Below, one piece after another: positions 1 through 52,759 of a stretch of 64,000 nt of DNA. A model generated the notes under the pieces. The model was not told the DNA's origin. It made no database searches and saw only the letters and a program-made list of their open reading frames with translations. The translations under genes and the position numbers were made by a program. The stretch spans positions 3,996-67,995 of the IMG/VR virus record IMGVR_UViG_3300043449_001484; one strand, 5' to 3'. Position 1 is the first letter of the stretch; every line of letters starts with the position of its first letter. The DNA comes from a virus.

Positions 1-372
1 GCGGCCTGCCTAACGGCAAACCGAACGCGGTTATTTCGCTTGTACAAGGACTTTAAGGCATTGCGCACCGCGTCAGCCGCCTTCCCGCTGTCCACGACAA
101 AGTAGTCGTTTACGATCATCCGCTTAAACGGATATCGATACCGTCCAGAAGTTGTCATTCCAAGTACATGCTTTCTTGCTTTGATGCCCTCGTAAAGGGG
201 GCATTCGCTATCCCTTTCCCTGCTCATCTCCTTTCTCCTTTCGCGTCCAACAATTCAAAGCACTTTATAAAAGTACCCGTAAAAAATCAAGCTTTTCAGG
301 CATTTCTGCAAATTCCTAATAGAGGTACTTCTACAAAAAAAAAAAAAAAAAAAAAAAAAAATGTCCCGCGCG
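1..372. repeat. Wrap-around copy of 63629-64000 (circular genome, unit length 63,628 bp)
   Basis: gcggcctgcctaacggcaaa... at base 1 recurs at 63629 and matches to the window end, including the A27 tract. Confidence 0.97.
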
Positions 373-771
373 CGCACCCCGTAAATTTCACCATTGAAAT
401 TACACTACACACTTCTTCTTTTAACAACGTAATAAAAAAGTGGCGTAGATACTAGCTTATTACGGCATTACGTCTATTACGGTACTTTACTACACAAAAA
501 CAAAAATGATTTTTTCTTCGTAAAAGTACCTCTATTAGTACTAGCGTGTTGCCGTAATAACTGACATATCAAAAAAGAAACGTAATGCTCTCGAAATACC
601 CTCTTTTAAATTCACAAAGACCCTTCTTTCCCGTACATTATTAAACCACCCCCACAAAACCCCGGTCCGTGGTCCATGATCCGTGCTCCTTTCCCCTTGC
701 CCCAAAGTACCCACATACTTCCCGCCTAAATCAGGAAAGCCGGTTTGTGGGAGTTGTGGGGGTAGATGGGG
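228..771. promoter_or_regulatory. Long non-coding AT-rich region, putative replication origin or control region
   Basis: A27 at 335-361; 15-bp inverted repeat 316-330/524-538; ATTACG/CGTAAT copies in both orientations; hairpin 384-401; GC skew changes sign across this part of the circle. Confidence 0.5.
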
Positions 772-1104
772 TTAGTGCGGCAGGACGGTTTTGGTGATGA
801 CCTTTGCCATTTCGGCGAAGGTGATGGGGTCGATGGTTTCGCCGAAGATGAAGTCGTTGATGTTGTCGTAGTCGGCTTCTTTGATCGGTGAGCCGAGGAA
901 CACGTAGCGTTGTCCGGTGTTGGTGACGATGTAGAGCACTTGCACGGACGCGCCTGCGGGCTGTTTTAGGAGGCTTTGGAGGGCTTCTGAGAAGCTTTTC
1001 TCTTCTTCCTCCTCTACTTCCTCCATATCCCTCGGTAATCCCTTGTACGCGTCCATAGCGGCCTCCTGAGCCTGTTTCTGCCTCAATACTACCGTTGCTT
1101 GCAA
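772..1104 (-). CDS. Hypothetical protein (acidic)
   Basis: ORF in the tightly packed minus-strand early cluster; the real start may be the internal Met of MDAYKG. Confidence 0.65.
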   Translation of the reverse strand: MQATVVLRQKQAQEAAMDAYKGLPRDMEEVEEEEEKSFSEALQSLLKQPAGASVQVLYIVTNTGQRYVFLGSPIKEADYDNINDFIFGETIDPITFAEMAKVITKTVLPH

Positions 1105-1346
1105 AATGCGTTTTTAGCGGCCTGTAGGCCCTCTGTAGAGGTTCCTGTCCACCATTTGAGGCATGAGCCGTTTTGCTGGGCTTCTGCAAGGCCAGCGTTT
1201 TTGCCTGCACTGCGGGCGGCTTTGTAGGTGGATTCGAGGAGGTCTTGGCAGGCGTGGTCCGTGGTCCGTGTAGCGAGGCTCCAGCCCAGTACGGCCCCGA
1301 TCAGGGCGCATAGGAGGGAGAGGAAGAGGGTATCGGAGCGGGACAT
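1089..1346 (-). CDS. Hypothetical membrane-anchored protein
   Basis: N-terminal hydrophobic helix LFLSLLCALIGAVLGWSLA; abuts its neighbours. Confidence 0.65.
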   Translation of the reverse strand: MSRSDTLFLSLLCALIGAVLGWSLATRTTDHACQDLLESTYKAARSAGKNAGLAEAQQNGSCLKWWTGTSTEGLQAAKNAFCKQR

Positions 1347-1576
1347 TAGGGCACTTCCTTTTGGGTTTGTTTGAGGAGGTTTCGGATGTCTTCGATGGTC
1401 AAGAAGGTTTGGTCGTAGATTTTCAGGACCATTTGGGCGGAGACGAGTTGTGTGCCGCCTCGGATACGGGAGACGCTACCGATGGAGATTTCCATGCGGT
1501 CGGCGAGTTCCTTGTCGGACTCAACTTTGTAGAACTCCATGAGGTTATCGAGGAGTGGGTGGGGGTTTCGTTGCAT
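1346..1576 (-). CDS. XRE-type HTH DNA-binding protein (paralog 1)
   Basis: LLD...SDKELADRMEISIGSVSRIRGG HTH; paralogous to 5466-5699; start placed at MQRNPH because a small ORF ends at 1581. Confidence 0.75.
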   Translation of the reverse strand: MQRNPHPLLDNLMEFYKVESDKELADRMEISIGSVSRIRGGTQLVSAQMVLKIYDQTFLTIEDIRNLLKQTQKEVP

Positions 1577-1580
1577 GATA

Positions 1581-1694
1581 TTAGTTTTTTGCATAACACA
1601 GGGTCAGACAGATGGCGAGGGCGGCGAGGAGGAGCACCACGCCTGCACCGATAAGCATACCGCCTAAAAGGAGGATGAGGGTGAAGGTTTCCAT
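1581..1694 (-). CDS. Small membrane peptide (37 aa)
   Basis: Hand translation METFTLILLLGGMLIGAGVVLLLAALAICLTLCYAKN; fills the gap; below the ORF-track cutoff. Confidence 0.55.
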   Translation of the reverse strand: METFTLILLLGGMLIGAGVVLLLAALAICLTLCYAKN

Positions 1695-1707
1695 GGTCTG
1701 TCCCTAA

Positions 1708-1824
1708 TTAATTGAGTAGATAGGCGAGGATGAGGCCAGAGATGGCGGCGGTAATGATGATGGTCACGATTTCCTCCAGTAGTCCGTTGAATGGGTCGTC
1801 ATTGTCGAAGGGGTCTTGGTCCAT
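1708..1824 (-). CDS. Small membrane peptide (38 aa)
   Basis: Hand translation MDQDPFDNDDPFNGLLEEIVTIIITAAISGLILAYLLN; AGGAG RBS upstream. Confidence 0.55.
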   Translation of the reverse strand: MDQDPFDNDDPFNGLLEEIVTIIITAAISGLILAYLLN

Positions 1825-1826
1825 GG

Positions 1827-2003
1827 TCACTTCTCCTTGACGATAAGGTCGAATTTAGCTTTTATGTAATCTTCTAAGGGGATGTTGAGCTTCTCTGCGA
1901 TGGCTTGTTCACTGGGGAACAAGTCAAATTTCACGGTTTTGTCCTTTTTCTCGTTATCGCCATATTGAATGCGCACGGTGAGTGTTTTGTATTTCTTGTC
2001 CAT
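1827..2003 (-). CDS. 58-aa protein resembling the scaffold C-terminal capsid-binding motif
   Basis: Hand translation MDKKYKTLTVRIQYGDNEKKDKTVKFDLFPSEQAIAEKLNIPLEDYIKAKFDLIVKEK; AGGAG RBS upstream; similar to the end of 48422-49393. Confidence 0.7.
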   Translation of the reverse strand: MDKKYKTLTVRIQYGDNEKKDKTVKFDLFPSEQAIAEKLNIPLEDYIKAKFDLIVKEK

Positions 2004-2006
2004 GGC

Positions 2007-2282
2007 TCATTCTCCTTTCTCCACTTGATGCGGGTGGATGATGGTGTTGAGTTCGTTCTTCTCTTGGAGTTCCTTGATCCGTGAGTCGAGGGCCTTGCGC
2101 AGTGGATCGACGCACGTGGTGCACAGGTCCCAGTTGTGGGAGCCGGTTCTAAAGTTATTGGGCCGTGGGCGTGGGACACCGTAGTTCTCGTGGCCCGGGT
2201 CTTGATAAAGGATGAAGGATTCCTTGTGGATTAAGGAGCCACAGAAGTCGCAGTAGTGGGCGTATTTGACGTAGAGACTCAT
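2007..2282 (-). CDS. Hypothetical zinc-finger protein
   Basis: CDFC...CTTC pair. Confidence 0.65.
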   Translation of the reverse strand: MSLYVKYAHYCDFCGSLIHKESFILYQDPGHENYGVPRPRPNNFRTGSHNWDLCTTCVDPLRKALDSRIKELQEKNELNTIIHPHQVEKGE

Positions 2283-2524
2283 GCGGGCTCCTCCTCGGAG
2301 AGGTCGTTATTGTCGGGTTCGTCGTCGGGAATTTTGCCAGTGCGTTTCAGGACGGCGATGGCAAAGACCTTGGCGGCCATCAAATTGATGAACTCCTTGC
2401 CTTCAACAGAATACGTTTGAGTAGGTGGGTTGTAAGTGATGTGGATCAGTATTTCTCCGGTGGGAGAGACGTAGGAATGTTTCTCGTAGGAGAGTTCGGT
2501 CCAGAAGTAGTCGTCATAGGTCAT
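2279..2524 (-). CDS. Hypothetical protein
   Basis: Overlaps its neighbours at start/stop codons. Confidence 0.6.
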   Translation of the reverse strand: MTYDDYFWTELSYEKHSYVSPTGEILIHITYNPPTQTYSVEGKEFINLMAAKVFAIAVLKRTGKIPDDEPDNNDLSEEEPA

Positions 2525-2723
2525 ATTTCTCTTCTCTTTCCTTCATCATGGCGTCAGCTACTTTGTAAGCTAGATAAGCAGAAAACTCGGCGTGATCGAT
2601 ATTTTCTTCTTCGACTTTTTTGTTTATCACGGGGTCCACGATGATTGCTTGCAACACTTTGGCCGCGAAGTAATCCCGCAGGTCCATGCCTTGTTGGTTT
2701 GTACTATTGGGAAATGCTTTCAC
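2514..2723 (-). CDS. Conserved phage protein (GMxLRDYFAAK family)
   Basis: GMDLRDYFAAKVLQA...AYKVADAMMKER motif, common in proteobacterial phages. Confidence 0.75.
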   Translation of the reverse strand: MKAFPNSTNQQGMDLRDYFAAKVLQAIIVDPVINKKVEEENIDHAEFSAYLAYKVADAMMKEREEKYDL

Positions 2724-3444
2724 TTCTTTCTCCTTTTAGTTTGTAATCGTGGAAAACCACGCCCTTTGTTGCATCACCACGTTTATGGGGCTTCCTCCAA
2801 AACCGTTTGTCATTTCGCGTGACCCAGTGTCCACGGACCTCGTGCAGGCGTGGACTTGCATGGGTTCCGCCTAAGGATTCGCTCTTCTCTTTTCTTGGTT
2901 CAATGACCACGGTGTGCCAGTCAAACATCGGCAGTTTCTTTTGTCGTAGGCGTTTTGCGTGGTTTTTGCTGGGTATGGGCGTGTAAGCGGTGGATATTTT
3001 TTCGTTATTTAAATTACGTAAGAAGGTAGCAATGACTACGATGCTAATAGTTGACACTTCAATTGCAAGATTCGTTTTGTTTTTGTAGACGCGGCTATCC
3101 TCAAAAAAGATGGTTATACCGTCTGAAACGTCTTCTTCCATGGGATCAATACGAAACACGGGGTCCGTTTGTCCAAGACGATTGCCGTGTTCCTTCAGTG
3201 TATTGGCTGCTTTAATTAACCATTTTCCGTCTTGTTCTTGACTAATCAAAACCGCGTAGGTCTGGCCGTCCATATCGATCCCTGCTATGGCGCATTTTGG
3301 GAAAGGTAATGGTTGTTTTATCCAATACATGTTTTCTTCATGTACAGTATTTCGGCCATTATCCATATCTGCAACATCAAACCACCTGTAATCCGCCGCG
3401 AGGTCCGGGAAGAATGTCACTGCCTTAGTGATTAACGGAGTCAT
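2704..3444 (-). CDS. Conserved phage protein with C-terminal HASPRxHxxRGHW motif
   Basis: GGTHASPRLHEVRGHW...FWRKPHKRG; function unknown. Confidence 0.75.
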   Translation of the reverse strand: MTPLITKAVTFFPDLAADYRWFDVADMDNGRNTVHEENMYWIKQPLPFPKCAIAGIDMDGQTYAVLISQEQDGKWLIKAANTLKEHGNRLGQTDPVFRIDPMEEDVSDGITIFFEDSRVYKNKTNLAIEVSTISIVVIATFLRNLNNEKISTAYTPIPSKNHAKRLRQKKLPMFDWHTVVIEPRKEKSESLGGTHASPRLHEVRGHWVTRNDKRFWRKPHKRGDATKGVVFHDYKLKGERSESISQ

Positions 3445-3983
3445 GAGTTCTTCTGCCGCAGCTTGGCTTCGATGGCGACTGCAAACTCAAGAACAGGAAG
3501 GTGTCGTTTGTCTTTAGTTTCTTCCATAACTTTTAGCCAAATCTCTTGGCTCTCTCCATCAGCCGCTAGGCCTCTCCATTCTTTCTTTTCCTCTACTGTG
3601 TAATGTCCACGCTTCACAGCTTCAGCAATAAATTCATCGTCTGTCCATTCACGCTTTGGAGGATAAGTATAGAGTCGCGTGTTTTGCTTTAATTTCTTAC
3701 CCGCTTCAGTCCAGACAATATCGTTATTCTCACTGTCATAAACTACCCACGCGACTGGCTCCTCTGGATCTACAAGCATATCAATAGCACCGAGAATAGA
3801 GTTGCTAAGTGCCTTACGGATTAAAGAAAGCGTGTCGTCAATCATCTCGTCATAAACGCCGGGGTCAGTTTTCTTGATGACTTCCAAAGTCATCTTGGCA
3901 TCTTCTAACGCTTCGGTGTCTGCCATAACTGCCGAATATATCTGGTCAATGTCCGATCTTACTTCTGGCTTGTTCTCATCCAC
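3441..3983 (-). CDS. Modular hypothetical protein (EPVAW...LYT.PPKREW modules)
   Basis: Shares modules with 3976-4485; ends in AIEAKLRQKN. Confidence 0.7.
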   Translation of the reverse strand: MDENKPEVRSDIDQIYSAVMADTEALEDAKMTLEVIKKTDPGVYDEMIDDTLSLIRKALSNSILGAIDMLVDPEEPVAWVVYDSENNDIVWTEAGKKLKQNTRLYTYPPKREWTDDEFIAEAVKRGHYTVEEKKEWRGLAADGESQEIWLKVMEETKDKRHLPVLEFAVAIEAKLRQKNS

Positions 3984-4485
3984 GGTTCTTCTCCTTTATT
4001 TTCCCTCTTGCCCATACTGCGCCATTAAAAAACGACTCATCAAATACATGATGGTTGGCTTCGTTGCGTATTTCCTCATCTGTCAGCCCCTGCCATTCGC
4101 GCTGTGGTGGGGCGGTGTAGAGCGGCTTAACATCGCCTATTCGCTCACGTTCCTCCGGCTTGCGATGTGTAAACCTTTGCTCCATATACTGCGTAAACCA
4201 TAAGTAGCCATGCGGCTCCGGTTCAGGCTGCGCTAATGCTTCCACTATCTTCTGCGCGACAAACCCTTCCCAATGCTGACCGTTTGGCGGGGTTTCATCA
4301 GAACAAAGAATGTCGTACACAATCTTTTCCTTGCCCGTAAGTTCTTTCGGTTCAGGTGCGCTTAGTCTGGCGCGGAGCATTTTGACTAAATTGTCTTCAA
4401 GAGTGGTAACGTCTTCAGCTTCTTCTAAAAACAATTCAAACACTTCTAATAGCTGCTGCGCTTCCTCGCGGGTTAGTGTGATCAT
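3976..4485 (-). CDS. Modular hypothetical protein (AQPEPEP...LYTAPPQREWQGLTDEEI)
   Basis: Mosaic ORF type frequent in Burkholderiales phages. Confidence 0.7.
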   Translation of the reverse strand: MITLTREEAQQLLEVFELFLEEAEDVTTLEDNLVKMLRARLSAPEPKELTGKEKIVYDILCSDETPPNGQHWEGFVAQKIVEALAQPEPEPHGYLWFTQYMEQRFTHRKPEERERIGDVKPLYTAPPQREWQGLTDEEIRNEANHHVFDESFFNGAVWARGKIKEKNRG

Positions 4486-4721
4486 TTGCTTTCCTCATTC
4501 ATCTTATCTGCCACTCTGTGCGCCAATTCAATCAGTCCGTCCCATATCATTTTGCTGACAATCTTGTGGTGACATGGGCCACCAGAACTGCTGATGTATA
4601 TTTTGTCTTTGTCAAACCAGCCGTAAGACTCTTTGCCGTGCTTGTTGTCGGCGCGAATGACGCAAACCTCAAATCCGTCTGTTGTGTAACCACCTTTGGT
4701 GTGAACAATCCATTTACTCAT
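4482..4721 (-). CDS. Hypothetical protein
   Basis: Start placed at MSKWIV after an AGGAG RBS; the track ORF extends into the neighbouring gene. Confidence 0.6.
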   Translation of the reverse strand: MSKWIVHTKGGYTTDGFEVCVIRADNKHGKESYGWFDKDKIYISSSGGPCHHKIVSKMIWDGLIELAHRVADKMNEESK

Positions 4722-4758
4722 TGTTGTTCTCCTGTAGCTTCCTCGCTTGTGAGTGTAA

Positions 4759-4983
4759 TCATCCCTGCCCCCTTGCGCGGATAGCGGCAGCAATCCAACT
4801 AGCGGACACTTCCTCGCCGTCATACTCTTTATTCACTTCATCACACACCTTCGCGCACTCCTCACGCTCTGCTGCTGCGACTAAGGCTGCAAAGCGTTCT
4901 ATCTCTGGCATAAAGTCGCGGAAGATCCCCCAATCTTCACCACCTGCCTCCCGCGCCATGCGGATAATGTCATCGCGGGTCAT
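4759..4983 (-). CDS. Conserved small phage protein (MTRDDIIRMAREAG...EREECAKVC...AIRARG)
   Basis: Recognisable family motif; function unknown. Confidence 0.75.
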   Translation of the reverse strand: MTRDDIIRMAREAGGEDWGIFRDFMPEIERFAALVAAAEREECAKVCDEVNKEYDGEEVSASWIAAAIRARGQG

Positions 4984-5273
4984 GGGTTATCTGTATCAAT
5001 AAACGTAAACGCATCTGCTGGATATGCACGACGTTCTCCGTCGTCGTACACAATGTGGACCTCGCCACCTATGTATCCCCAGCACCCGAACATGGTCTTC
5101 TGACTAGGCGCACTGGCGGTGGCCATCTTCAACGGAATCTTAGACTTATCTGGGCAGTTATTTGCGTGCAGGACAATCTTGCCCCCGGCTTTATTGCGCA
5201 ACTCGAAATACTTCTCTGCGTGAGCCGTGGAGCATGTAACTAGAAGTAGGATCAATAGTTTATTCATTATCAT
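4980..5273 (-). CDS. Hypothetical secreted/periplasmic protein
   Basis: Signal peptide ending AHA; GCW motif. Confidence 0.65.
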   Translation of the reverse strand: MIMNKLLILLLVTCSTAHAEKYFELRNKAGGKIVLHANNCPDKSKIPLKMATASAPSQKTMFGCWGYIGGEVHIVYDDGERRAYPADAFTFIDTDNP

Positions 5274-5437
5274 CTCCGTGTCTCATCCAGAATTTGTTGC
5301 AGGCGCTCGACCTCTGCTTGGAGGCCCTTAATTCGTGATTCTTTCTCCTTGAGCGCTTCGACCCACGCGGTTAGGACGTGGAGTTGCTTCTCCATGAAGT
5401 CGAGATCGGCGGCCATTTTGGATAGTTTGTCGTTCAT
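5270..5437 (-). CDS. Small coiled-coil protein (55 aa)
   Basis: Hand translation MNDKLSKMAADLDFMEKQLHVLTAWVEALKEKESRIKGLQAEVERLQQILDETRR; AGGAG RBS. Confidence 0.6.
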   Translation of the reverse strand: MNDKLSKMAADLDFMEKQLHVLTAWVEALKEKESRIKGLQAEVERLQQILDETRR

Positions 5438-5465
5438 TACTTTCTCCTTTATCGGTATTACGGGG

Positions 5466-5699
5466 TTAGATGATGTCGTCTTTGGGACAGTAGGTTAGGA
5501 GTTCCTCGACGGGGACTTGAGTTAAGAGGTGGACTTTCAAGAGGAGGCGGGCGCTAACCTTGTTGGTGCCGTTGCGGATTTTGGAGATGCAGGAAGGTTG
5601 GACCTTTAAAACGGAGGCCAGTTCACCGTCTTCTTCCAAGGCAAAGAAGTCTTTGACGGCGTCCAAGAGAGCATGCTCATGGGTAATGGTGCGTGACAT
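5466..5699 (-). CDS. XRE-type HTH DNA-binding protein (paralog 2)
   Basis: LLDAV...DGELASVLKVQPSCISKIRNG...LLLKVH. Confidence 0.75.
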   Translation of the reverse strand: MSRTITHEHALLDAVKDFFALEEDGELASVLKVQPSCISKIRNGTNKVSARLLLKVHLLTQVPVEELLTYCPKDDII

Positions 5700-5708
5700 A
5701 GGATTCTC

Positions 5709-5870
5709 CTACCAGCGCGCGCTGCCGTGTGTGGCGGGCGTGGGCGTGGGGGGTGGATATTTGGCTTTGGTAACCAGTTTCCAACCGGGTTGCATGAATT
5801 TCAGGGCTTCATGTTTGTCCCAGAACTTGCGGAAGAGTTTGTTCTCCTCGTCGTAGACTTCGTAGCGCAT
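5709..5870 (-). CDS. Hypothetical protein
   Basis: Start placed at MRYEVYDE, coupled to the upstream stop codon. Confidence 0.55.
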   Translation of the reverse strand: MRYEVYDEENKLFRKFWDKHEALKFMQPGWKLVTKAKYPPPTPTPATHGSARW

Positions 5871-6121
5871 TAGATTTTCCTCTGGCAGGTGAAGGCTTGG
5901 TAGCCGACGCGGAAGGACTGGGCGTATTTGCAGTCGCTCGTGATCCGTGATTCGGTGTCCGTGGAGCCGACTATCATTCCGATGATTAAGGCGGCGAGTG
6001 GCCAGAAGGACTTGGACCAGATGATTTTTGCCCAAGCGAGGAGTTGTTTGGCGTCGAAGAAGTTTTCTTTGTTCACGTTATTGGTTCCTGAGTGTTTGTA
6101 TTTGAGCCAGTAGGCTTTCAT
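5870..6121 (-). CDS. Hypothetical membrane protein
   Basis: Hydrophobic segment FWPLAALIIGMIVG; C-terminal Cys pair. Confidence 0.6.
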   Translation of the reverse strand: MKAYWLKYKHSGTNNVNKENFFDAKQLLAWAKIIWSKSFWPLAALIIGMIVGSTDTESRITSDCKYAQSFRVGYQAFTCQRKI

Positions 6122-6290
6122 TTTCTTTCTCCAGTATTGCGCAGCGGTCTGCCAGCTCTGCCCACTTTAATTTGTAGACGTTTTGGTTGTCGATGATGTC
6201 GGCAGCGGTTCTTAGGATTGAACATACGGAATCATTGGTATGGTCTTCGATCCCGCTTGACACTTCGCGCAGTAGTTCAGTAAATCTCAT
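6078..6290 (-). CDS. Hypothetical coiled-coil protein
   Basis: Packed ORF with an ATGA-type overlap. Confidence 0.6.
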   Translation of the reverse strand: MRFTELLREVSSGIEDHTNDSVCSILRTAADIIDNQNVYKLKWAELADRCAILEKENESLLAQIQTLRNQ

Positions 6291-6547
6291 GTCAGGGCTC
6301 CGAGGAGGTTTTTGATGCGTTGACGGACGGTGGCCGTGGTCCGTGTAGCGCGAATCTGGCGTAGGTAATCGTTGCCGTCATGTGCGCAACCAGTGGCGAT
6401 ATACAGTTGTTTGTGCAGGGATTGGATTTCGCGAATGGCCATGTCACGCTGGCGTCGATAGCGCTCGGACAGTCGCTTCCAGTATTCAATGTTGTGCACT
6501 GAATTATTCATGCTTGCTCCTCCATGCCTGATAACGAAAGTAGTCAT
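6287..6547 (-). CDS. Hypothetical protein
   Basis: Packed ORF; likely start at MNNSVH. Confidence 0.55.
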   Translation of the reverse strand: MTTFVIRHGGASMNNSVHNIEYWKRLSERYRRQRDMAIREIQSLHKQLYIATGCAHDGNDYLRQIRATRTTATVRQRIKNLLGALT

Positions 6548-6767
6548 CGATGAAGTCGGGATTCAAGATCTCGTCCTCAAGCGCCAATACCTCCGGTTCT
6601 GAAAGTGCTGGGAGGATATTAACCCGGCGGCTTTTGCCTTGGGAAGAAGGAATGTTGATATAAACGCCCGTTATATCTAACTGGATGGGGATGTTGTGTT
6701 CATCGACGGGATCGAGAACATCGAAGTCCACTTCAACGTGGAGTTGGATTGTTAATTTGGTTTGCAA
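6504..6767 (-). CDS. Hypothetical protein
   Basis: AGGAG RBS; packed ORF. Confidence 0.6.
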   Translation of the reverse strand: MQTKLTIQLHVEVDFDVLDPVDEHNIPIQLDITGVYINIPSSQGKSRRVNILPALSEPEVLALEDEILNPDFIDDYFRYQAWRSKHE

Positions 6768-7086
6768 GTTCTTTCTCCTTTCTACGTGCTGCGATTTTTG
6801 CTCTGTATTCCTCTTCTTCGAGGCGGTTTTGGATGTCTTCAGCTTCGACTTTGGACAGAGTCTTTTTGAATGCTGCTTCGATCATCCGGTGGACGAAGTC
6901 CATCATGGAGGTTTCGTAATAGGCGGCGAGTTCTTTGGCCATGGCATGAGTCAAGGGCCGTAAATTCAGGACCTTGTATTGAAGCTTGCGCAGGGGCGAG
7001 CCGGGGCCGGGGGACTTGTACTTGCGCTTCCTGCCGCGTTTGCGGCTTTTCGGACGACCGACACGCTTTGGCTTGTATTCGGACAT
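6733..7086 (-). CDS. Putative DNA-binding protein (basic AT-hook-like N-terminus, possible ribbon-helix-helix)
   Basis: KRVGRPKSRKRGRKRK followed by strand-helix-helix; first gene after a promoter. Confidence 0.6.
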   Translation of the reverse strand: MSEYKPKRVGRPKSRKRGRKRKYKSPGPGSPLRKLQYKVLNLRPLTHAMAKELAAYYETSMMDFVHRMIEAAFKKTLSKVEAEDIQNRLEEEEYRAKIAARRKEKELANQINNPTPR

Positions 7087-7107
7087 ACTTTCTCCTTTCT
7101 GATCTGT

Positions 7108-7136
7108 ATAGTATACGACATCCGTGAAACTTACAA
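7108..7136 (-). promoter_or_regulatory. Sigma70-like promoter for the small-ORF cluster
   Basis: TTGTAA-N17-TACTAT on the minus strand. Confidence 0.55.
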
Positions 7137-7152
7137 GGACTTTTTATTCTCG

Positions 7153-7182
7153 AAAAACGGGGCCCATGTTGCCATAGGCCCC
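7153..7182 (-). terminator. Intrinsic terminator after polA
   Basis: GGGGCC...GGCCCC hairpin followed by GTTTTT on the minus strand. Confidence 0.65.
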
Positions 7183-7234
7183 CAAATCCCACCAAGGAGC
7201 GCGGGGAGAAAACTCTTAACCCCCCGCAAAACCA

Positions 7235-46411: not shown

Positions 46412-47320
46412 TTAGGCCGCGCCGGGCGAACCGAAGATACCGCGCCAGTCGGAGAAGCCGAAGCTGTAACGCTCACGCGCTTTGTAGCGCACGTTACCAG
46501 TCTCGAAGTCACCTTCAAAGGCGGTTTTCATGCTGACACGGTCAAACATCTTCATGCCGTTAGGAGCATCGGTCTTGATGAACCATGCATCTGGATCGGT
46601 CAGGTAGTGGTTGACAGTGTAACCCTGCGGAATCATGCCCATGTTCTTGATGGCATTGATATCGTTGTCAGCAGTGCCGACACGCAGAGTGGACTTCATG
46701 ATGCGGTCCGCAGTGAACTGAAGCTCTTTTGGGATGATTAGCTTCAGACCTTGGATCGCGATCTTCAGGTTACGCTCGTCTACCAATGACTGGATGTCGA
46801 TGAGGGCCTGCTCCAAAGAAGTCTCGGAGAGGTCAGCAGCGGTTGCCAGTTCATTTTTCTGGTCTGGACCACCAATAATTGGGTGATCTGTCGAGCATAG
46901 AGCAACACCATCACCACCAGTAGAAGTAGTGAAAGCACCATTCAGAACAGATGCCGCTTTGATCTGCTTGGTGGTTGCCATTGAACGAGCCAGTGCCATG
47001 GTATAACGACGAGACAGACGGTCGTACAGGTTATCTTCCACAGCCTCTTCAGTCAGCGAGAACGCCAAAGCGATAGTCTCGTGAGTGTAGCGGGCAGTGT
47101 AGACTTCCTGCGCGGTGTCGTAAGCCAGACCAGCGCCTTCGGTTTTGACCGGAGCCTCACCAAAGCCGGACAGCATGACTTCCTCTTCAAATGCGCGATC
47201 AGATGACTCAACATCATAGATCTGCAAATGCTCTTGCTCGTAGTTCTTATACTCAAGGCCGAACAGGGCGTTTAGGCCCGGCTCAAGTTCCTTAACTAGT
47301 TGTGCACGTGTAATTGCCAT
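46412..47320 (-). CDS. Major capsid protein (Mu gpT-like, HK97 fold)
   Basis: MAITRAQLVKELEPGLNALFG...YLTDPDAWF...RERYSFG.SDWRG. Confidence 0.9.
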   Translation of the reverse strand: MAITRAQLVKELEPGLNALFGLEYKNYEQEHLQIYDVESSDRAFEEEVMLSGFGEAPVKTEGAGLAYDTAQEVYTARYTHETIALAFSLTEEAVEDNLYDRLSRRYTMALARSMATTKQIKAASVLNGAFTTSTGGDGVALCSTDHPIIGGPDQKNELATAADLSETSLEQALIDIQSLVDERNLKIAIQGLKLIIPKELQFTADRIMKSTLRVGTADNDINAIKNMGMIPQGYTVNHYLTDPDAWFIKTDAPNGMKMFDRVSMKTAFEGDFETGNVRYKARERYSFGFSDWRGIFGSPGAA

Positions 47321-47331
47321 GATTTAGCTCC

Positions 47332-47913
47332 TTATTCGCCCGGTGTGCCAACACTGCCATAGCTGTGGCAGTTGATCTTGACAACTACTTGAGTGAAGTT
47401 CTCCCCTAGTGCATTGCCGGGAACATCATATTTACCGACAATCTTCAGCACAAGAGTTGAACCTGTGCCTACTGTGGAAGAATCGAGTTCCATATTAGAT
47501 AGGCCACTGATGGCGCTACCTGTAGAACCGACGGTAACTTCAGCATTTTGACCCATGTCGGCTTGGACAATGTCCTCATCCGCTTGGATCACAAACAGCT
47601 GACTTGGATCGTCAATCACATCAGCCTGAATTGTGCCGGTAGTGATGTTGACGGAGCCGGGATAGTACATCTTCCATGTGGGCTTGCCAGTGGTTGGGTC
47701 TACGTAATAGCAGCCATTGAAAACACCCACAGCAGTGGTATGGCTTGCTGCTACATACTTAACGATGTAACCGCCAGCGATTGTAACTAGATCGCCTTGA
47801 TAGATCGCACCAGATTGGTTGTCTGCAATCTGATACCCATACTGCTTTTGGGCACCGGTAGCGGATAGATTACCAAGCGGGCGCAGACCATAGGCTTTAT
47901 CGACGTTTGCCAT
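47332..47913 (-). CDS. Capsid cement/decoration protein
   Basis: MAN.D.AYGLRP, GVFNGC, DDP..LF; immediately upstream of the MCP gene. Confidence 0.65.
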   Translation of the reverse strand: MANVDKAYGLRPLGNLSATGAQKQYGYQIADNQSGAIYQGDLVTIAGGYIVKYVAASHTTAVGVFNGCYYVDPTTGKPTWKMYYPGSVNITTGTIQADVIDDPSQLFVIQADEDIVQADMGQNAEVTVGSTGSAISGLSNMELDSSTVGTGSTLVLKIVGKYDVPGNALGENFTQVVVKINCHSYGSVGTPGE

Positions 47914-47934: not shown

Positions 47935-48417
47935 TTACTCATCGGCCTTCGGGCTTCCAAAGACCGTTCGTGACCGACGTTGCGGATTGTTGATGCGCAT
48001 GCTGTCATGAGCATTTGCCTTCAACAGATCGTTATCTACGGCCTGCAATTGATCTCGGGTGCGCGAGGTGTAATACGCATTGCGCTCTGCAACCGTTTCT
48101 TCGGGAATACGCGCCAAGAGCAGACTACCTACGCTAAGTACACCAGCGTGGCGGCTGCCTTCCGATGAAGTTCCAAGGAAGTCAGGATATTCGTCGGCAC
48201 GAACAAGTTCGTAGCCTTCGCGTAGCCGTGAAGCTACGTTGATACGGTCATCATATCCATTTGCTTCTGCTCGAATCCAACGGTGCTTGTATCCCGGAGG
48301 CGCAGGAGGCGCATCCAGTTTAGAAGGAGGGGCCCACGGCTTGCGGCGCGCAGTTGCGGAACGTGTTTCAGTTTCACGCGACTTGCGATTTAATGAAGGC
48401 ACTTCAAGTTTGTCCAT
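47935..48417 (-). CDS. Conserved head-module protein
   Basis: WAPPS.L.AP..P.GYKHRWIR...EGYELV...LLLARIP. Confidence 0.7.
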   Translation of the reverse strand: MDKLEVPSLNRKSRETETRSATARRKPWAPPSKLDAPPAPPGYKHRWIRAEANGYDDRINVASRLREGYELVRADEYPDFLGTSSEGSRHAGVLSVGSLLLARIPEETVAERNAYYTSRTRDQLQAVDNDLLKANAHDSMRINNPQRRSRTVFGSPKADE

Positions 48418-48421: not shown

Positions 48422-49393
48422 TTACTCCTTTACATATTTGGCGTATTCCTCAAGCGGAACACCCAACTTTTTGGCAATCGCTACCTGACTCGGAGTCAGT
48501 TTCACGGTGCGGCGCGCGTTATTAACTCCCGACGAACGGGTTGCAGGAGCGACGGAGTGCGCGGCCCGTGCTCTCTGTGGTTTTTGTTGCATAGACGGAT
48601 TATTTCCTCTTTGGAACTTGTTAGGAAACGCTTCGCGTATACGCCTGTCCAGCTCATCATAGTACTCTTCGCTTTCGGGGTCAAATCTCTCATCAATCAC
48701 CAACTGGCGATGGATGCCCCATGTGGCATGCGTCATAGCAGTATCCGTTCCAAACCATGGATTCTGCTCCGCCCATTCCTCTGCGCGCGGGTCAGGCTCG
48801 CGAGCGGCCTGTTGCGGCGCTTGCTGGGCCTGTTGTCGCATTGCCGCCTGCTGCTGGGCCTGAAGCGCAGCCGCTTCATCCTGCTGTTGTCGCTGGGCCG
48901 CTGCCTGCTGGATCTGACGCTGGTCCATCAGGATGGCAGTTAACCGCTCCTGCGCCTCCGTCTCGGTATCCATATCGCCCTCTTCCCGCGCTTGGCGCAA
49001 GACTTGCTTTAAGGCTGCGATTTGGGTATCAATTCGGCCCTTCGCCTCATAAAGACGTTCGGTATCCGTCTGACGGAACTGCTGTTCTAGCTGCGTTGCA
49101 CGCTGCTGTACGCTTTTTGCGTATTCAATAGCCGCATGCTCACGACGCTCCGTCTCACGAAGACGCGCTGTTAGCTTTTCAATACGCTTTCGGACATTAC
49201 TGCTGTATTCGTCCATGTCCTTGGACTGCTGACGCTGCTCAACAGCTTGTTCGGACGCAGGGGAACTTTCCAGTTCTATTTCCGGGGCTTCTGGCGCATC
49301 CGCTAACTGAGCATCCGTGCCATCCTCGTTCATTTCAATGGTTGCAGGCTCTTCGCCTTCCCCAATATCAAACTCTAGTTGTTCGCTTGACAT
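48422..49393 (-). CDS. Capsid scaffolding protein
   Basis: Acidic coiled coil, W...NPWFG, C-terminal VKLTPSQVAIAKKLGVPLEEYAK. Confidence 0.75.
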   Translation of the reverse strand: MSSEQLEFDIGEGEEPATIEMNEDGTDAQLADAPEAPEIELESSPASEQAVEQRQQSKDMDEYSSNVRKRIEKLTARLRETERREHAAIEYAKSVQQRATQLEQQFRQTDTERLYEAKGRIDTQIAALKQVLRQAREEGDMDTETEAQERLTAILMDQRQIQQAAAQRQQQDEAAALQAQQQAAMRQQAQQAPQQAAREPDPRAEEWAEQNPWFGTDTAMTHATWGIHRQLVIDERFDPESEEYYDELDRRIREAFPNKFQRGNNPSMQQKPQRARAAHSVAPATRSSGVNNARRTVKLTPSQVAIAKKLGVPLEEYAKYVKE

Positions 49394-50142: not shown

Positions 50143-50403
50143 TCAATAAATCTTGACCGGGTTGTTCCCGTCTCTTTTCTTCACAATCATCGCCGGGCCC
50201 TGCACACCCTTCATCGCACCGCCCTTGGCCATCTTTTTTGACTTGCCTGCAGTAGACAGTGCAATCGCCACCGCCTGCTTGACCGCTGCCTTCTTACTCT
50301 TGGGCTTACTCGTACCAATCTCGCCCGTCTTTTTGAATTTTCCCACCATTTCGCTAATGTTGCCAGAAACAACTTTCTGACTCGACCCTTTTTTAAGAGG
50401 CAT
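50143..50403 (-). CDS. Small basic protein
   Basis: MPLKKGSS...[12 protein letters not shown]...MAKGG. Confidence 0.75.
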
Positions 50404-52759
50404 TTTGCGCTCCTTGCTGTTGGTTAATCTGATTCAACCGCTCTCTAGCCACATCCGCACGCAACATCGCAATATTTTCCTGCGATTGAATCCGTGCCTG
50501 ATTCGCTGCCTTGTTCTCAGCTACCTTCTGCTGCTCAATACCTAAGCGTTGCTGATCCACCTGAATTCTTGCCTGATCCGTTTGTGCCCGCTGCTGGATT
50601 TCCGCTTCCTTCAACTGCACAATCGGATCCGGACCCTCTCCAGAAATCTGCGACTGCATCTGACGAACCTCCATCATGCCTTGCGCAACCTTCACCGCAA
50701 TCATGCCCTCCTTCTGAATCGCAGACACCATACGATCCGGGTCAGAGCCATACTCCGCAAACAGTTGCGCTTCGACTTCCTCTTCCGCTTTCTTCCTGAC
50801 ATGGTCAAGAATATGCTTTTGCAGCGTCATCGCCGACTGTGGATTGGCCTGTAACATCGGAGACAAGCCCATCACCAAGTGCGACAAGATATGCGCGTCA
50901 TGCTGCTGACCAGAGAACGCTTTTAGCTCCATCAAATCCAGTACATCCGCATTTTCCTGCGCGGGATCCTTAGGCATCTGCGTATTCTGTGGCCTCAAGA
51001 TGCCGTCAATATCGCGCACGTTCATCGCCGCATACACACGGTAGTACGCCTCGTACATGTTATGCATCATGGGCGCACTTTGCGCCAACTGCAGTTGCGT
51101 TTGCGCCAGAGTGATCCTCTGAGCGACTGAAAATATGTTGGGGTCTGCAACAGGCAGCACTGCCACGAGCTCATTAAAGTCTTTTTTCTTGATCTTGCGG
51201 GAAGCGCCCGGTACTTCATAAGGATATTCGTCCTCCAAGTACTTGCCAAAGCCCTTTGCCAGCAGCTGGAACTCGATCTTCTGCGCATAATGCAGGCGCT
51301 TGTGAATCGCCGACATCACCATCGAGCCTTTTTCCAGCAACGCGATGGTTGTACCCACCGCCGCCATCTGATTGCCTTCGCCAACCTGCATGTCGGCAAT
51401 CGACGCCAGCCTCTTTCCTGCCTCCACCACAAAACCAAGCAACGCAAACAACGTCTGACTCGGCTCTTTGTACGGCAGCGGCAATAATGACGAGGTCAAC
51501 TCCGCACCACCCGCGTCAATATCCCGCCATTCGCCCGGCTGAATCGGATTATCGCTGTCCGCAATCCTCGCGCCCTTGGCTTTGAAGCCCGCAGGCAGGT
51601 TTGAGAGCGTTCCTGCGTCCAAAAGCTGGCGCATTGCCATCGTCGCCGTCTTTGACAAGCCACCAATCAGATGCACAAAGCCCAAGCCATACGCGCCAAG
51701 GCCCTCGACCAGCACATAATGCACAAAAGTGGGGATGCGGAGCTTTAATTCGTCATCTTCTTCCCAATTTCTACGCACGCCAATGACGCGACCGCTCACT
51801 TCGTCAATCGTAATCAGAAAAGGCAGCTTGATTCCCGTCGGCTCGCCATCCTCATCCAAGTCTTCAAAGCCCGGAACGTCGTAATCGACGTGCATTTCCA
51901 GCAAAAAGATCTCTTCTGCCTCTTCAGACGGCGTTAAACCAGTCTGTTTATCGGTCGCCTGCGTAATATCCGACGCCGTTGGGTCGCTCGACTCGGGCTG
52001 AATGTTCAAATCAAGGTATTCGCCCGCTACAACACGTTTTCTAAACTCGTTCGCGGGCATCGCAACACGGTGTGTTATGCGTGTGCACTGGCTCATGACG
52101 CTTGAACCGAAGTACGGGATGTACAAATCGTCTGCCAAGACCAGTTTTGACACCATCCGACCGACTTGACGGTCGTAATACACCTTCTTGAACACCGATC
52201 CACCGTATCCAAGATGGAAAAGTGCCTGATCAAACTCAGGGGTGTACTCTTCCATCACGTTCGTGATCTGGTAATTCATGAAATCTTGCACGCGAGCAGC
52301 CTGTTGGGCCTTGTCCAACGTCTCTTTGCCCACGATTTGCGTCCTAACCGGCCCACTTGAAGGCATCAACTCCTTCATCGCCTGCGCTTGGAACTGCACA
52401 ATCGCCTCCGTCAGCATCGGATGCACCGCTCCAGCAGCACCACGGAAGGGCTTGGTGCGCTCTTCAAGCTTCAAGCCCAGCAAATCCATGCCCTTGGAGT
52501 ACATCGACTCCCAATCCGAACGCGAAGACTTGTCCGCTTCGTACAATGCCTGCAGATCTTTGGCCATCACAGACAAGTCATCCTCGTCGATTACCTCGGC
52601 AAGGTTGCTGTAGAAGTCCACTTCATCGGCTTCTTCTTCGCCCATCTCAATCGTGGCACCACCGTCTTCTTCCAAGACGATCTCGATCTCCGGCATGCCT
52701 GCCGCATCAATCTCCACGGACAAGGGCTTCTCTTCTTCCCCGAGCTTATCTATTGGCAT
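50393..52759 (-). CDS. Portal protein
   Basis: [51 protein letters not shown]. Confidence 0.9.

What the first reader, a model, noticed from the sequence alone, without database searches (positions are those of the whole stretch)
1827..2003. Small early-region ORF resembles the scaffold C-terminal capsid-binding motif
Seen: the 58-aa ORF, missed by the 60-aa track, contains TVKFDLFPSEQAIAEKLNIPLEDYIK. The scaffold ends TVKLTPSQVAIAKKLGVPLEEYAK (48422-48508). The shared pattern L.PS..AIA.KL..PLE.Y.K gives 13 identities in 21 positions, plus an upstream TVK. Established: podovirus scaffolds such as that of P22 bind coat protein through a C-terminal helix-loop-helix. Inference: a free scaffold-tail mimic could delay the phage's own head assembly, poison proheads of co-infecting relatives, or carry cargo into the head.
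Basis: partly seen in the sequence, partly recalled or inferred. Interest (0 to 1): 0.78.

Follow-up and report, generated by a model that had tools for sequence, protein, structure and literature searches.

The report
Stand-alone copy of phage scaffold tail
A small, dispensable gene in an uncultured freshwater phage encodes a free-standing, charge-reversed copy of the short tail that ends the phage's head-scaffolding protein, so it may tune or sabotage head assembly, but nothing has been tested.

Summary
Window 1827-2003 (minus strand) is a 58-aa ORF whose residues 26-53 match the last 27 residues of the 323-aa scaffold-like protein (48422-49393): BLASTP E 6e-6, profile-profile E 2.8e-10. In a tail-HMM search of 7,917 six-frame ORFs from six genomes it is the only non-scaffold hit (E 6e-7).

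The gene looks real. It has a Shine-Dalgarno site and four metagenomic homologues of 55-65 aa with in-frame indels.

It is a single-gene cassette flanked by a 20-nt direct repeat found nowhere else in the window. One natural contig lacks it, as do 5 of 5 related viral records and 4 of 4 deposited relatives.

The hydrophobic core of the module is kept, but the charge is reversed: scaffold tails are +4 to +6, the small module 0 to -6. Co-folding with the coat protein gave only weak support (0.47, best control 0.00). The predicted fold is strand-helix-helix and resembles ribbon-helix-helix proteins at low Z.

Best reading (about 45%): an accessory modulator or competitor of head assembly that binds coat protein or the scaffold tail.

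The scan's earlier, unchecked notes report scaffold-tail reuse in other phages.

The parts
1827..2003 (-). 58-aa ORF: predicted beta-hairpin (residues 6-14 and 17-28), then helix 30-38, loop, helix 43-57. Residues 26-53 are homologous to the scaffold tail.
   Evidence: ORF; homology; four homologues of 55-65 aa, 32 invariant columns, in-frame indels; AF2, mean pLDDT 72.4.
1998..2017 (-). Upstream copy of the 20-nt junction repeat AAGGAGAA-NNNN-CCATGGAC. It holds the Shine-Dalgarno AAGGAG 8 nt before the ATG, the stop codon of the upstream 91-aa gene, and the first two codons (Met-Asp) of the small ORF.
   Evidence: The pattern occurs only twice in 64 kb with up to 1 mismatch; 0.00 expected from shuffles.
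1819..1838 (-). Downstream copy of the junction repeat, 179 nt from the first. It holds an SD, the small ORF's stop codon, and the Met-Asp start of the next gene (a tail-anchored membrane protein).
   Evidence: the contig from run X2 joins across this interval, with a single junction and no small ORF.
48422..49393 (-). 323-aa scaffold-like protein: acidic N-terminus, long coiled coil (48-190), small helical domain (202-261), disordered linker (264-292), C-terminal tail.
   Evidence: ORF lies between portal and major capsid gene; PHROG 28737, E 1.9e-66, function unnamed; AF2. 'Scaffold' is inferred from gene position and architecture.
48422..48511 (-). Scaffold tail module (residues 295-323 plus stop): strand 295-299, helix 301-310, helix 314-320. 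Nearly invariant in 80 relatives; net charge +4 to +6.
   Evidence: 80 tails, 33 distinct 40-aa versions, although the whole scaffolds are only 50-79% identical.
46412..47320 (-). Major capsid protein, 302 aa, Mu gpT-like; the presumed partner of the scaffold tail. Its first 50 residues have net charge -7.
   Evidence: PF25209 E 2.9e-12; PF10124 Mu-like_gpT E 3.6e-6; 71-97% identical in relatives; charge counted from the sequence (co-fold).
2007..2282 (-). Upstream neighbour: 91-aa protein with two Cys pairs, no family match. It belongs to the same variable slot but is gained and lost independently of the small ORF.
   Evidence: (present in the X2 contig that lacks the small ORF).
1708..1830 (-). 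Downstream neighbour: small tail-anchored membrane protein (real start probably the ATG at 1824). Conserved in relatives G002 and G003; marks the 3' edge of the variable slot.

Best explanation
The ORF is a real, lineage-specific accessory gene. It encodes a free-standing paralogue of the strand-helix-helix module that ends this phage group's head-scaffolding protein, and it lies in a hypervariable slot as a single-gene cassette.

The paralogue keeps the hydrophobic core and several surface residues of the tail (P, S, A-I-A, K-L, P-L-E, Y, K). It has lost or inverted the basic residues that make the scaffold tail cationic.

The most likely mechanism (inferred, not shown) is that the protein enters the head-assembly interaction network. 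It would either occupy the scaffold-tail site on the coat protein, or pair with the scaffold tail itself. Either way it would act as a competitor or dominant-negative modulator of procapsid assembly, affecting the phage's own assembly timing or that of co-infecting relatives, whose tails and coat proteins are nearly identical. It is not essential for the phage.

Shown: homology, conservation as a coding gene, cassette structure, presence/absence polymorphism, charge inversion.
Inferred: that the 323-aa protein is the scaffold, that its tail binds the coat protein, and everything about what the small protein binds or does.
For: Homology to the tail:
- (E values from 6e-6 down to 2.8e-10).
- The small-ORF profile finds exactly one place, the scaffold C-terminus, in 5 of 5 related viral records (E 7e-6 to 5e-5).

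The tail is a functional element:
- It is almost invariant in 80 relatives whose scaffolds are only 50-79% identical.
- It follows a disordered linker on a coiled-coil protein encoded between portal and coat genes.
- A more distant scaffold-like protein (L003) carries the same motif at its C-terminus beside its coat gene. That tail matches the last 29 positions of Pfam Mu-like_Pro (E 0.0035, below cut-off) and the end of PHROG 328 'head maturation protease' (E 1.6e-4).

Same predicted strand-helix-helix in both proteins.

Real gene:
- AAGGAG 8 nt before the ATG, with stop/start coupling to both neighbours.
- Four homologues, 64-91% identical in the alignment, 32 invariant columns, indels all in frame.
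- The similarity to the tail is held at protein level only: 34/63 nt identical, 6/21 third positions identical, and 4 of 13 identical residues share a codon.

Co-fold with the coat protein: 'weak support'.
- Median score 0.47 (runs 0.47, 0.56, 0.00); best of 3 controls 0.00.
- Runs agree in at least 39% of contacts; partner pLDDT at least 56.
- The mark was reached by 58 of 80 solved complexes and 2 of 110 mismatched pairs. At 0.60 or under it was reached by only 7 of those 80 and by both mismatches that passed.

Precedents from papers:
- SaPI1 CpmB uses a C-terminus homologous to the 80alpha scaffold's to compete for the same coat-protein site (PMC5644958, passages read).
- The P22 scaffold hook binds the acidic N-arm of the coat protein through Arg293 and Lys296 (PMC12005531, passages read).
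Against: Charge inversion:
- Scaffold tails have net charge +4 to +6 (27 distinct 32-aa tails). The small-ORF module has 0 to -6 (5 sequences).
- R294, R295, K298 and K308 of the scaffold correspond to V/T, K/E, D and E in the small family.
- The coat protein's first 50 residues are net -7 (sequence).
- If binding is electrostatic as in P22, the small protein should bind the coat protein worse than the tail does.

The co-fold support is only weak, and one of three runs scored 0.00.

The module is not at the C-terminus here; 10 more residues follow it.

The gene is rare and dispensable:
- Absent from 5 of 5 related viral records (three of them 98-100% complete) and from 4 of 4 deposited scaffold-bearing phages.
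- Absent from a contig in run X2 that is about 98.7% identical over 1000-1797 (10 differences in 798 bases) and joins across the cassette.
- In syntenic relatives the slot is empty or holds an unrelated 107-aa ORF.

There is no sign that the phage's own coat protein or tail differs from those of relatives in a way that would protect it from its own inhibitor.

The fold also resembles DNA-binding ribbon-helix-helix domains.

That the 323-aa protein is a scaffold is itself an inference.
Confidence: 0.45

Rival explanations
1. It is a ribbon-helix-helix-type DNA-binding regulator, like Arc or Mnt of P22 or an RHH antitoxin. The resemblance to the scaffold tail would reflect only a shared small fold, or an old common origin with no present link to head assembly.
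For: - The all-against-all structural search lists PutA RHH (2rbf, Z 3.7, rmsd 2.6, 38 aligned), Arc (1arq, Z 3.1), omega (2bnw), ParG (1p94), NikR, AmrZ, CopA and TacA antitoxins over model residues about 20-58. From memory I class at least 15 of the 50 listed rows as RHH proteins; two say so in their titles.
- Small genes in such clusters are often regulators, and two HTH proteins lie nearby (1346-1594 and 5466-5699).
Against: - All Z values are 3.7 or lower, which the tool says is common for unrelated folds. Foldseek found nothing at E <= 0.001 in PDB or BFVD.
- No RHH or other family in Pfam or NCBIfam. No RHH proteins in the 1.84-billion-protein profile search or in the PDB sequence search (best hit a GntR effector domain, E 0.029).
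- The outward-facing strand positions are T, E/K and an invariant D, and the second helix starts P-L-E-D. Acidic residues therefore sit where, as I recall, RHH proteins contact DNA (reading).
- The module's net charge is 0 to -6.
Confidence: 0.17
2. The tail is a capsid-addressing tag. The small protein is co-assembled into the procapsid like the scaffold, either as a minor internal protein or as cargo delivered to the next host. This would be analogous to the T4 capsid-targeting sequence or to tail-sharing protease/scaffold pairs.
For: - Same homology evidence as for the main reading, plus the weak co-fold support (0.47 against a best control of 0.00, with the caveats given above).
- Earlier unchecked notes of this scan describe scaffold-tail peptides reused as tags in other phages.
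- Sharing of a C-terminus between Mu gpI and gpZ is recalled, not tested here.
Against: - Apart from the module the protein has only a roughly 20-residue hairpin and 10 C-terminal residues, so there is almost nothing to deliver.
- Only two places in the genome carry the tail. This is unlike tag systems that mark several proteins.
- No Mu-like or S78 prohead protease was found (only these two families were searched).
- Charge inversion.
Confidence: 0.1
3. It is a selectively near-neutral by-product of recombination: a fragment of some phage's scaffold gene captured between two gene junctions. It may be expressed but has no role of its own.
For: - Rare; lies in a hypervariable slot; flanked by junction repeats; lost without visible consequence in a near-identical genome.
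- GC content is 41% against 50.7% for the window.
Against: - Five distinct sequences keep the frame through three in-frame indels, and 32 columns are invariant, concentrated in the module.
- Divergence from the scaffold gene is saturated at synonymous positions while the protein motif is kept.
- The charge changes are systematic rather than random.
- Contigs carrying the ORF lie in runs from two studies besides the possible source (X3, X5).
Confidence: 0.12
4. The resemblance is chance, or a generic helix-turn-helix fragment found in many unrelated contexts.
For: - Weak PDB sequence matches to unrelated proteins with an 'A..KLGI...DY' stretch: GntR effector domains at E 0.029-0.05 and a designed double-psi barrel at 0.25.
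- One unrelated repeat protein, P0007, contains 'YPSDQAIAESFG'.
Against: E values of 6e-7 to 2.8e-10 in genome-scale and profile-profile tests. The match always lands on the last residues of scaffolds, in the phage's own genome, in 5 of 5 relatives, and in 2 of the 3 weak hits among 50,697 deposited phage records.
Confidence: 0.03

Closest known systems
SaPI1 CpmB (72 aa), competitor of the phage 80alpha scaffolding protein (PMC5644958; passages read)
   Same: A very small protein whose C-proximal part is homologous to the C-terminal coat-binding end of a scaffolding protein, with a separate short N-terminal part. Encoded outside the head-gene module.
   Different: - CpmB is encoded by a satellite and acts on its helper phage; this gene lies in the phage's own genome.
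- There is no sequence relation: the RIIK hook named in the paper is absent.
- Here the module is charge-inverted and not at the extreme C-terminus.
- Dimerisation and capsid-size redirection are untested.
P22 gp8 scaffolding protein, C-terminal helix-turn-helix 'hook' (PMC12005531; passages read)
   Same: A small C-terminal module on a flexible linker at the end of an elongated helical scaffold. It is basic and faces an acidic N-arm of the coat protein.
   Different: No detectable sequence similarity was found (PDB sequence searches). The tail here is predicted to have a short strand before the two helices. The free copy has lost the basic character that P22 needs for binding.
C-terminal end of Mu gpI/gpZ-type head protease/scaffold proteins (Pfam PF10123 Mu-like_Pro; PHROG 328)
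   Same: - The coat protein here is Mu gpT-like.
- The tail of a distant scaffold-like protein with the same motif (L003) aligns to the last 29 positions of PF10123 and to the end of PHROG 328.
- One source names some scaffold fragments 'phage I-like protein'.
   Different: Those matches are below the curated cut-off. The window's own scaffold and the small ORF do not hit PF10123. No protease domain is present. That gpI and gpZ share a C-terminus by nested translation is recalled, not tested.
T4 capsid-targeting sequence on internal proteins (recalled; also named in the scan's earlier notes)
   Same: Reuse of a scaffold-related peptide on a non-scaffold protein.
   Different: The T4 tags are N-terminal, are removed by the prohead protease and carry real cargo. 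Here there is a single protein, no cargo, and no protease found among the two families searched.
Ribbon-helix-helix DNA-binding domains (Arc, Mnt, CopG, ParG, omega)
   Same: Strand-helix-helix topology and size (Z up to 3.7).
   Different: No sequence-family match. Shorter first helix. Acidic residues where RHH proteins usually touch DNA (my reading; the RHH rules are recalled).

Membership tests
Scaffold C-terminal tail module of this phage group (C-terminus of PHROG 28737) | Sequence match to the tail profile | tested here: met
   E 6e-6; E 0.007 at profile positions 308-334/341; E 6.2e-7; next non-scaffold hit 0.73; hhalign E 2.8e-10.
Scaffold C-terminal tail module of this phage group (C-terminus of PHROG 28737) | Predicted short strand followed by two short helices | tested here: met
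   Small ORF: E17-28, H30-38, H43-57. Scaffold: E295-299, H301-310, H314-320. Both at moderate pLDDT.
Scaffold C-terminal tail module of this phage group (C-terminus of PHROG 28737) | Sits at the extreme C-terminus of a long coiled-coil protein, after a disordered linker | tested here: not met
   Stand-alone 58-aa protein; 10 residues follow the module.
Scaffold C-terminal tail module of this phage group (C-terminus of PHROG 28737) | Strongly basic (net +4 to +6; conserved RR, K, KK) | tested here: not met
   Net charge 0 to -6 in the 5 family members. The basic positions are replaced by V/T, K/E, D and E.
Scaffold C-terminal tail module of this phage group (C-terminus of PHROG 28737) | Binds the major capsid protein | tested here: inconclusive
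   Co-fold gave 'weak support': 0.47 against a best control of 0.00, with one of three runs at 0.00. Binding by the scaffold tail itself was not tested.
CpmB-type competing mini-scaffold | Small protein carrying a copy of a scaffold's coat-binding end | tested here: met
CpmB-type competing mini-scaffold | Encoded by a satellite that parasitises the phage | tested here: not met
   The gene lies inside a 63.6-kb phage genome among conserved phage genes.
CpmB-type competing mini-scaffold | Sequence relation to CpmB / RIIK hook | tested here: not met
   No RIIK in the sequence (motif taken from PMC5644958). The PDB sequence search did not return the CpmB entries.
CpmB-type competing mini-scaffold | Dimerises and changes capsid size or assembly | not testable with these tools
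   Needs biochemistry and electron microscopy.
Capsid-targeting tag on cargo (T4 CTS type) | The tag is attached to a distinct cargo domain and occurs on several proteins | tested here: not met
   Only the scaffold and this ORF carry the module. The rest of the ORF is a roughly 20-residue hairpin.
Capsid-targeting tag on cargo (T4 CTS type) | A prohead protease is present that removes the tag | tested here: inconclusive
   PF10123 and PF04586 are not found in the record. Other protease families were not searched.
Ribbon-helix-helix DNA-binding proteins | Strand-helix-helix fold | tested here: inconclusive
   RHH domains head the VIA-align list, but at Z 2.6-3.7 only. Foldseek gave no hit at E <= 0.001.
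Ribbon-helix-helix DNA-binding proteins | Match to an RHH sequence family | tested here: inconclusive
   No family at E <= 1 in Pfam or at E <= 10 in NCBIfam. Short divergent RHH proteins often escape such models.
Ribbon-helix-helix DNA-binding proteins | Homodimer that binds DNA through the paired strands | not testable with these tools
   Needs EMSA or structure determination. The acidic strand face (T, E/K, D) argues against it, by inference only.
Mu gpI/gpZ C-terminal end (PF10123) | Match to the C-terminal positions of the family model | tested here: inconclusive
   The L003 tail matches positions 302-330/330 at E 0.0035, 17.4 bits against a cut-off of 25.2. The window's scaffold and small ORF give no match.

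The most novel reading that the evidence does not exclude
The protein is a phage-encoded 'anti-scaffold'. It keeps the core of the scaffold's strand-helix-helix tail, so it can pair with a scaffold tail (as ribbon-helix-helix domains pair) or sit on its coat-protein site. It replaces the cationic binding face with an acidic one, which makes a dominant-negative subunit comparable to Id proteins acting against bHLH factors (recalled analogy). Because the tail and coat protein are almost invariant across this abundant freshwater phage group, such a mobile single-gene cassette could serve as an inter-phage weapon or as an assembly timer aimed at the group's most conserved interface.
Probability: 0.15. 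Interest if true: 0.8.

Novelty: new variant of a known kind. Interest (0 to 1): 0.5.

Why it matters
Scaffold-coat recognition is the step that starts head assembly in tailed phages. The known natural proteins that copy a scaffold's coat-binding end come from satellites that hijack a helper phage (CpmB).

Here the phage itself carries a free copy with three distinctive features:
- it is a mobile single-gene cassette;
- its fold core is kept;
- its binding face is charge-reversed.

If it acts on assembly, it would be a compact, natural, genetically separable inhibitor or modulator of a highly conserved interface in a widespread group of freshwater and marine phages. It would also be a simple handle for studying how these Mu-like heads, which lack a recognised protease, use their scaffold. 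If it proves to be a DNA-binding regulator instead, the finding would suggest that this scaffold tail and ribbon-helix-helix domains share an origin.

Tried and rejected
Searches that added nothing:
- Fold searches with the small-ORF model: Foldseek against PDB and BFVD gave no hit at E <= 0.001.
- The protein atlas holds the sequence but gave no usable hit and has no model.
- PADLOC: nothing for the small ORF. A weak Cas8b hit (E 0.012) for the 91-aa neighbour is taken as noise.
- PDB sequence search with the whole scaffold: only coiled-coil noise.
- Profile search of 1.84 billion representatives: besides the ORF's own family, it returned three long repeat proteins. On inspection these match only through a beta-hairpin-like repeat or a chance 'YPSDQAIAESFG' stretch, so I rejected them as relatives.

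Searches with limits:
- Scan of metagenome contigs with the small-ORF alignment: 491 pattern matches, none confirmed.
- Scan of viral contigs: 326 pattern matches, 1 confirmed, and that one is a scaffold.
- Search for shorter proteins carrying the scaffold tail: 1,354 hits. Only the best 120 were shown. All are 71-100% identical fragments or short gene calls of scaffolds, so the call could not reveal divergent stand-alone copies.

Expression: no RNA holder is listed for window 1000-4000. X19, a run guessed to be RNA, laid contigs only on 2650-2690 and 3441-4000, not on the ORF. This says nothing about expression.

Promoter and terminator scan of 1-7500: no site near the ORF, and fewer sites than in shuffles.

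Ideas considered and dropped:
- A recent duplication of the phage's own scaffold tail. Codon-level identity is at background.
- That the small ORF's N-terminal strand derives from the scaffold's N-terminal strand, which AF2 pairs with the tail. Only two residues agree, with no statistical support.

Not available:
- Supplementary tables of PMC12753301, which list the temporal class of each HTVC027P gene, were not consulted.
Full report
THE OBSERVATION

The window carries a 58-aa ORF at 1827..2003 on the minus strand, with an ATG start. A 323-aa ORF lies at 48422..49393, also on the minus strand, between the portal gene (50393..52759) and a Mu gpT-like major capsid gene (46412..47320). Residues 22-48 of the small protein align with residues 295-319 of the large one: 16/27 identities, two gaps, E 6e-6.

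The match survives tests that allow for multiple comparisons:
- A six-frame search of the whole 67,995-bp record with the small protein finds itself and only the scaffold C-terminus (E 1.5e-4).
- The small protein hits the large protein's own PHROG family (28737; large protein E 1.9e-66) at profile positions 308-334 of 341 (E 0.007).
- hhalign of the small-ORF family against 33 scaffolds gives probability 96.8%, E 2.8e-10, over 28 columns ending at the scaffold's last residue.
- An HMM built from 27 distinct scaffold tails was run against 7,917 six-frame ORFs of the window, four related viral records and phage DSL-LC04. It scores the six scaffolds at about 1e-23, the small ORF at 6.2e-7, and nothing else better than 0.73.

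THE GENOME

The window is bases 3996-67995 of a viral record whose first 4,367 bases recur at its end with 4 mismatches. The real genome is therefore about 63.6 kb. Almost all genes are on the minus strand.

The scaffold-like protein has homologues in Phage DSL-LC04 (55% identity), phage 023Pt_psg01, Pelagibacter phages HTVC023P and HTVC027P, and Roseobacter phages CRP-901 and CRP-902. It also has 165 relatives in IMG/VR, of which 80 loci were kept.

Contigs carrying the region lie in runs labelled lake water, freshwater and estuary metagenomes (X2, X3, X5).

The small ORF sits in a run of small co-directional genes downstream of the DNA polymerase and helicase genes. DSL-LC04 has the same layout. 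Whether this region is 'early' is not known. In the related HTVC027P, all early genes are of unknown function and the temporal classes are interleaved along the genome (PMC12753301, section 12 read).

IS THE 323-AA PROTEIN A SCAFFOLD, AND IS ITS TAIL FUNCTIONAL?

No library names the family. The inference rests on position and architecture:
- The gene lies between the portal and capsid genes.
- AlphaFold2 predicts an acidic N-terminus, a long coiled coil (48-190), a small helical domain (202-261), a disordered linker (264-292) and a tail made of strand 295-299, helix 301-310 and helix 314-320.

Across 80 relatives the whole protein is only 50-79% identical. The last roughly 30 residues, however, are almost invariant: there are 33 distinct 40-aa versions, all reading …SSG[VI]N..ARR.[VI][KR]L.PS[QE]VAIAK[KR][LI]GVPLEEYAK.VK.. 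The capsid protein is also highly conserved, at 71-97%.

A more distant scaffold-like protein (L003, 275 aa, directly upstream of its capsid gene) ends in a version of the same motif. That tail aligns with the last 29 positions of Pfam Mu-like_Pro (E 0.0035, below cut-off) and with the end of PHROG 328, 'head maturation protease' (E 1.6e-4). One source labels some scaffold fragments 'phage I-like protein'.

The tail is therefore probably the conserved C-terminal end used by Mu-type head proteins. By analogy with P22 and 80alpha (PMC12005531 and PMC5644958, passages read), I infer that it is the coat-binding end.

IS THE SMALL ORF A GENE?

- An AAGGAG lies 8 nt before the ATG.
- The upstream gene's stop codon is 3 nt before the start codon, and the ORF's own stop overlaps the next gene's start region.
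- Four metagenomic homologues of 55-65 aa are 64-91% identical in the alignment, with 32 invariant columns concentrated in the module. All three indels are in frame.
- The relation to the scaffold tail is old and is maintained at protein level. In the 21-codon core, 34/63 nucleotides and 6/21 third positions agree, and only 4 of 13 identical residues use the same codon.
- Its GC content is 41%, against 50.7% for the window and 55% for the scaffold gene.

A DISPENSABLE CASSETTE

- The small-ORF profile finds exactly one place in each of five related viral records, and in every case that place is the scaffold C-terminus (E 7e-6 to 5e-5). The records' completeness is 81, 100, 98, 100 and 56%.
- The scaffold tail finds one place per record in the four deposited phages that have the scaffold.
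- In the syntenic slot, between a conserved 81-aa gene (2279-2524) and a tail-anchored membrane protein (1708-1830):
  - relative G002 has nothing;
  - relative G003 has an unrelated 107-aa ORF;
  - the window has a 91-aa protein with two Cys pairs plus the small ORF.
- The 20-nt sequence AAGGAGAA-NNNN-CCATGGAC (SD, a stop codon, then Met-Asp) occurs only twice in the window, at 1998-2017 and 1819-1838. The two copies are 179 nt apart and bracket the ORF. Shuffled sequence gives 0.00 matches.
- A 3,277-nt contig in run X2 has 10 differences over 1000-1797. It joins across 1798-1997 with three letters in between. It therefore has a single junction and no small ORF, but it keeps the 91-aa gene. 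Contigs in X3 and X5 carry the ORF.

So the gene is gained or lost as a unit at gene boundaries, and it is not essential.

STRUCTURE AND CHARGE

AlphaFold2 on the five-sequence alignment gives mean pLDDT 72.4. It predicts a hairpin (6-14 and 17-28) followed by helices 30-38 and 43-57. The second strand and the two helices correspond to the scaffold tail's strand-helix-helix.

Some positions are shared and others changed:
- Core positions that are shared or conservatively replaced: L299/L28, A305/A34, I306/I35, A307/A36, L310/L39, V312/I41, L314/L43, Y317/Y46, A318/I47.
- Surface positions that are shared or conservatively replaced: P301, S302, K309, E315, E316→D45, K319.
- The basic residues typical of the scaffold tail are not shared: R294/R295 become V/T and K/E, K298 becomes an invariant D27, and K308 becomes an invariant E37.

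Net charge is +4 to +6 for the 27 distinct tails and 0 to -6 for the five small modules. The first 50 residues of the capsid protein are net -7 (counted).

The VIA-align search of 48,161 chains puts ribbon-helix-helix domains at the top (PutA 2rbf, Z 3.7; Arc, omega, ParG, NikR, TacA and others). All Z values are 3.7 or lower, a range the tool warns is common for unrelated folds.

BINDING TEST

The one complex-prediction job folded the capsid protein (25-row alignment) with the small ORF (5 rows). The verdict was 'weak support':
- Median score 0.47 (runs 0.47, 0.56, 0.00); best of 3 controls 0.00.
- Runs agree in at least 39% of contacts; partner pLDDT at least 56.
- The mark was reached by 58 of 80 solved complexes and 2 of 110 mismatched pairs. 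At 0.60 or under it was reached by only 7 of those 80 and by both passing mismatches.
- No interface was reported.
- The positive control (scaffold tail with capsid protein) and the tail-with-small-ORF pair could not be run.

INTERPRETATION

I take the following as established:
- the homology (about 0.9);
- that this is a coding gene (about 0.85);
- that it is an accessory cassette.

What the protein does is inference. The conserved fold core together with a systematically inverted binding face is what one expects of a competitor or dominant-negative partner, rather than of a second scaffold or a neutral fragment. It could act at the coat protein's tail site, for which there is weak co-fold support but which the charge inversion argues against. 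It could instead pair with the basic scaffold tail, which is untested.

I put about 0.45 on 'acts in head assembly through coat protein or scaffold'. The rivals are:
- ribbon-helix-helix-type DNA-binding regulator: 0.17;
- capsid-addressed passenger: 0.10;
- near-neutral recombination by-product: 0.12;
- chance or generic motif: 0.03.
The remainder is unassigned.

COMPARISON WITH WHAT IS KNOWN

- The closest functional precedent is SaPI1 CpmB, a 72-aa satellite protein whose C-terminus is homologous to the 80alpha scaffold's and competes for the same coat-protein site (PMC5644958). This gene differs in being phage-encoded, unrelated in sequence, charge-inverted and not C-terminal.
- T4-type capsid-targeting tags differ in carrying cargo and depending on a protease. 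Here only two places in the genome carry the module, and the two protease families searched were not found.
- Earlier unchecked notes of this scan describe scaffold-tail peptides reused on small proteins in other phage genomes, mostly T4-like. They concern different motifs and were not tested here.
- My literature searches were limited. Among the listed papers I saw none describing a phage-encoded free-standing scaffold-tail paralogue. I did not search exhaustively.

VERDICT

I rate the finding a new variant of a known kind, of moderate interest (0.5).

Noticed in passing
window 59634-64000 and the 3,995 bases before the window (G000 1-4367 = 63629-67995): The viral record is terminally redundant. 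Its first 4,367 bases recur at the end with 4 mismatches, so the genome unit is 63,628 bp although the source classes the record as 'linear'.
   Followed up: partly
window 1798-1815 (minus-strand gene 1708-1830): The contig in run X2 that lacks the small ORF also lacks 18 nt (six codons) in the DPF-DND-DPF repeat at the N-terminus of the downstream tail-anchored membrane protein. The same protein is 47-60 aa long in relatives G002 and G003.
   Followed up: partly
window 1346-1594 and 5466-5699 (minus): Two paralogous CI-type helix-turn-helix proteins (82 and 77 aa) lie in the small-gene cluster. Each cross-hits the other's homologue in relatives.
   Followed up: no
window 49403-49948 (minus): A 181-aa protein with a GroES/Cpn10 domain (Pfam E 3.2e-8) is encoded between the portal and scaffold genes. 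It is also annotated in DSL-LC04.
   Followed up: no
window 48422-49393 (minus), residues 17-21 and 295-299: In the AlphaFold2 model of the scaffold, the tail's short strand pairs with a conserved N-terminal strand (consensus ATVEMNEDG). In the small ORF the equivalent strand pairs with the ORF's own N-terminal strand. Confidence is low and the sequence similarity is not significant.
   Followed up: partly
window 2007-2282 (minus): A 91-aa protein with CxxC…CxxC pairs matches no family in Pfam, PHROGs or NCBIfam. It occupies the same variable slot as the small ORF but is gained and lost independently. A weak PADLOC Cas8b hit (E 0.012) is probably noise.
   Followed up: partly
proteins P0009-P0128: Very many metagenomic gene calls of about 96-104 aa or 44-48 aa consist of just the C-terminal part of this scaffold. 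The clustered lengths suggest either assemblies breaking in the Gln-rich repeat or a conserved internal start. A nested short scaffold product, as I recall for Mu gpZ, was not examined.
   Followed up: no
window 47332-47913 and 47935-48417 (minus): Two conserved proteins of unknown function (193 aa, PHROG 37556; 160 aa, PHROG 36003) lie between the scaffold and capsid genes. L003 has a 182-aa ORF in the same position.
   Followed up: no
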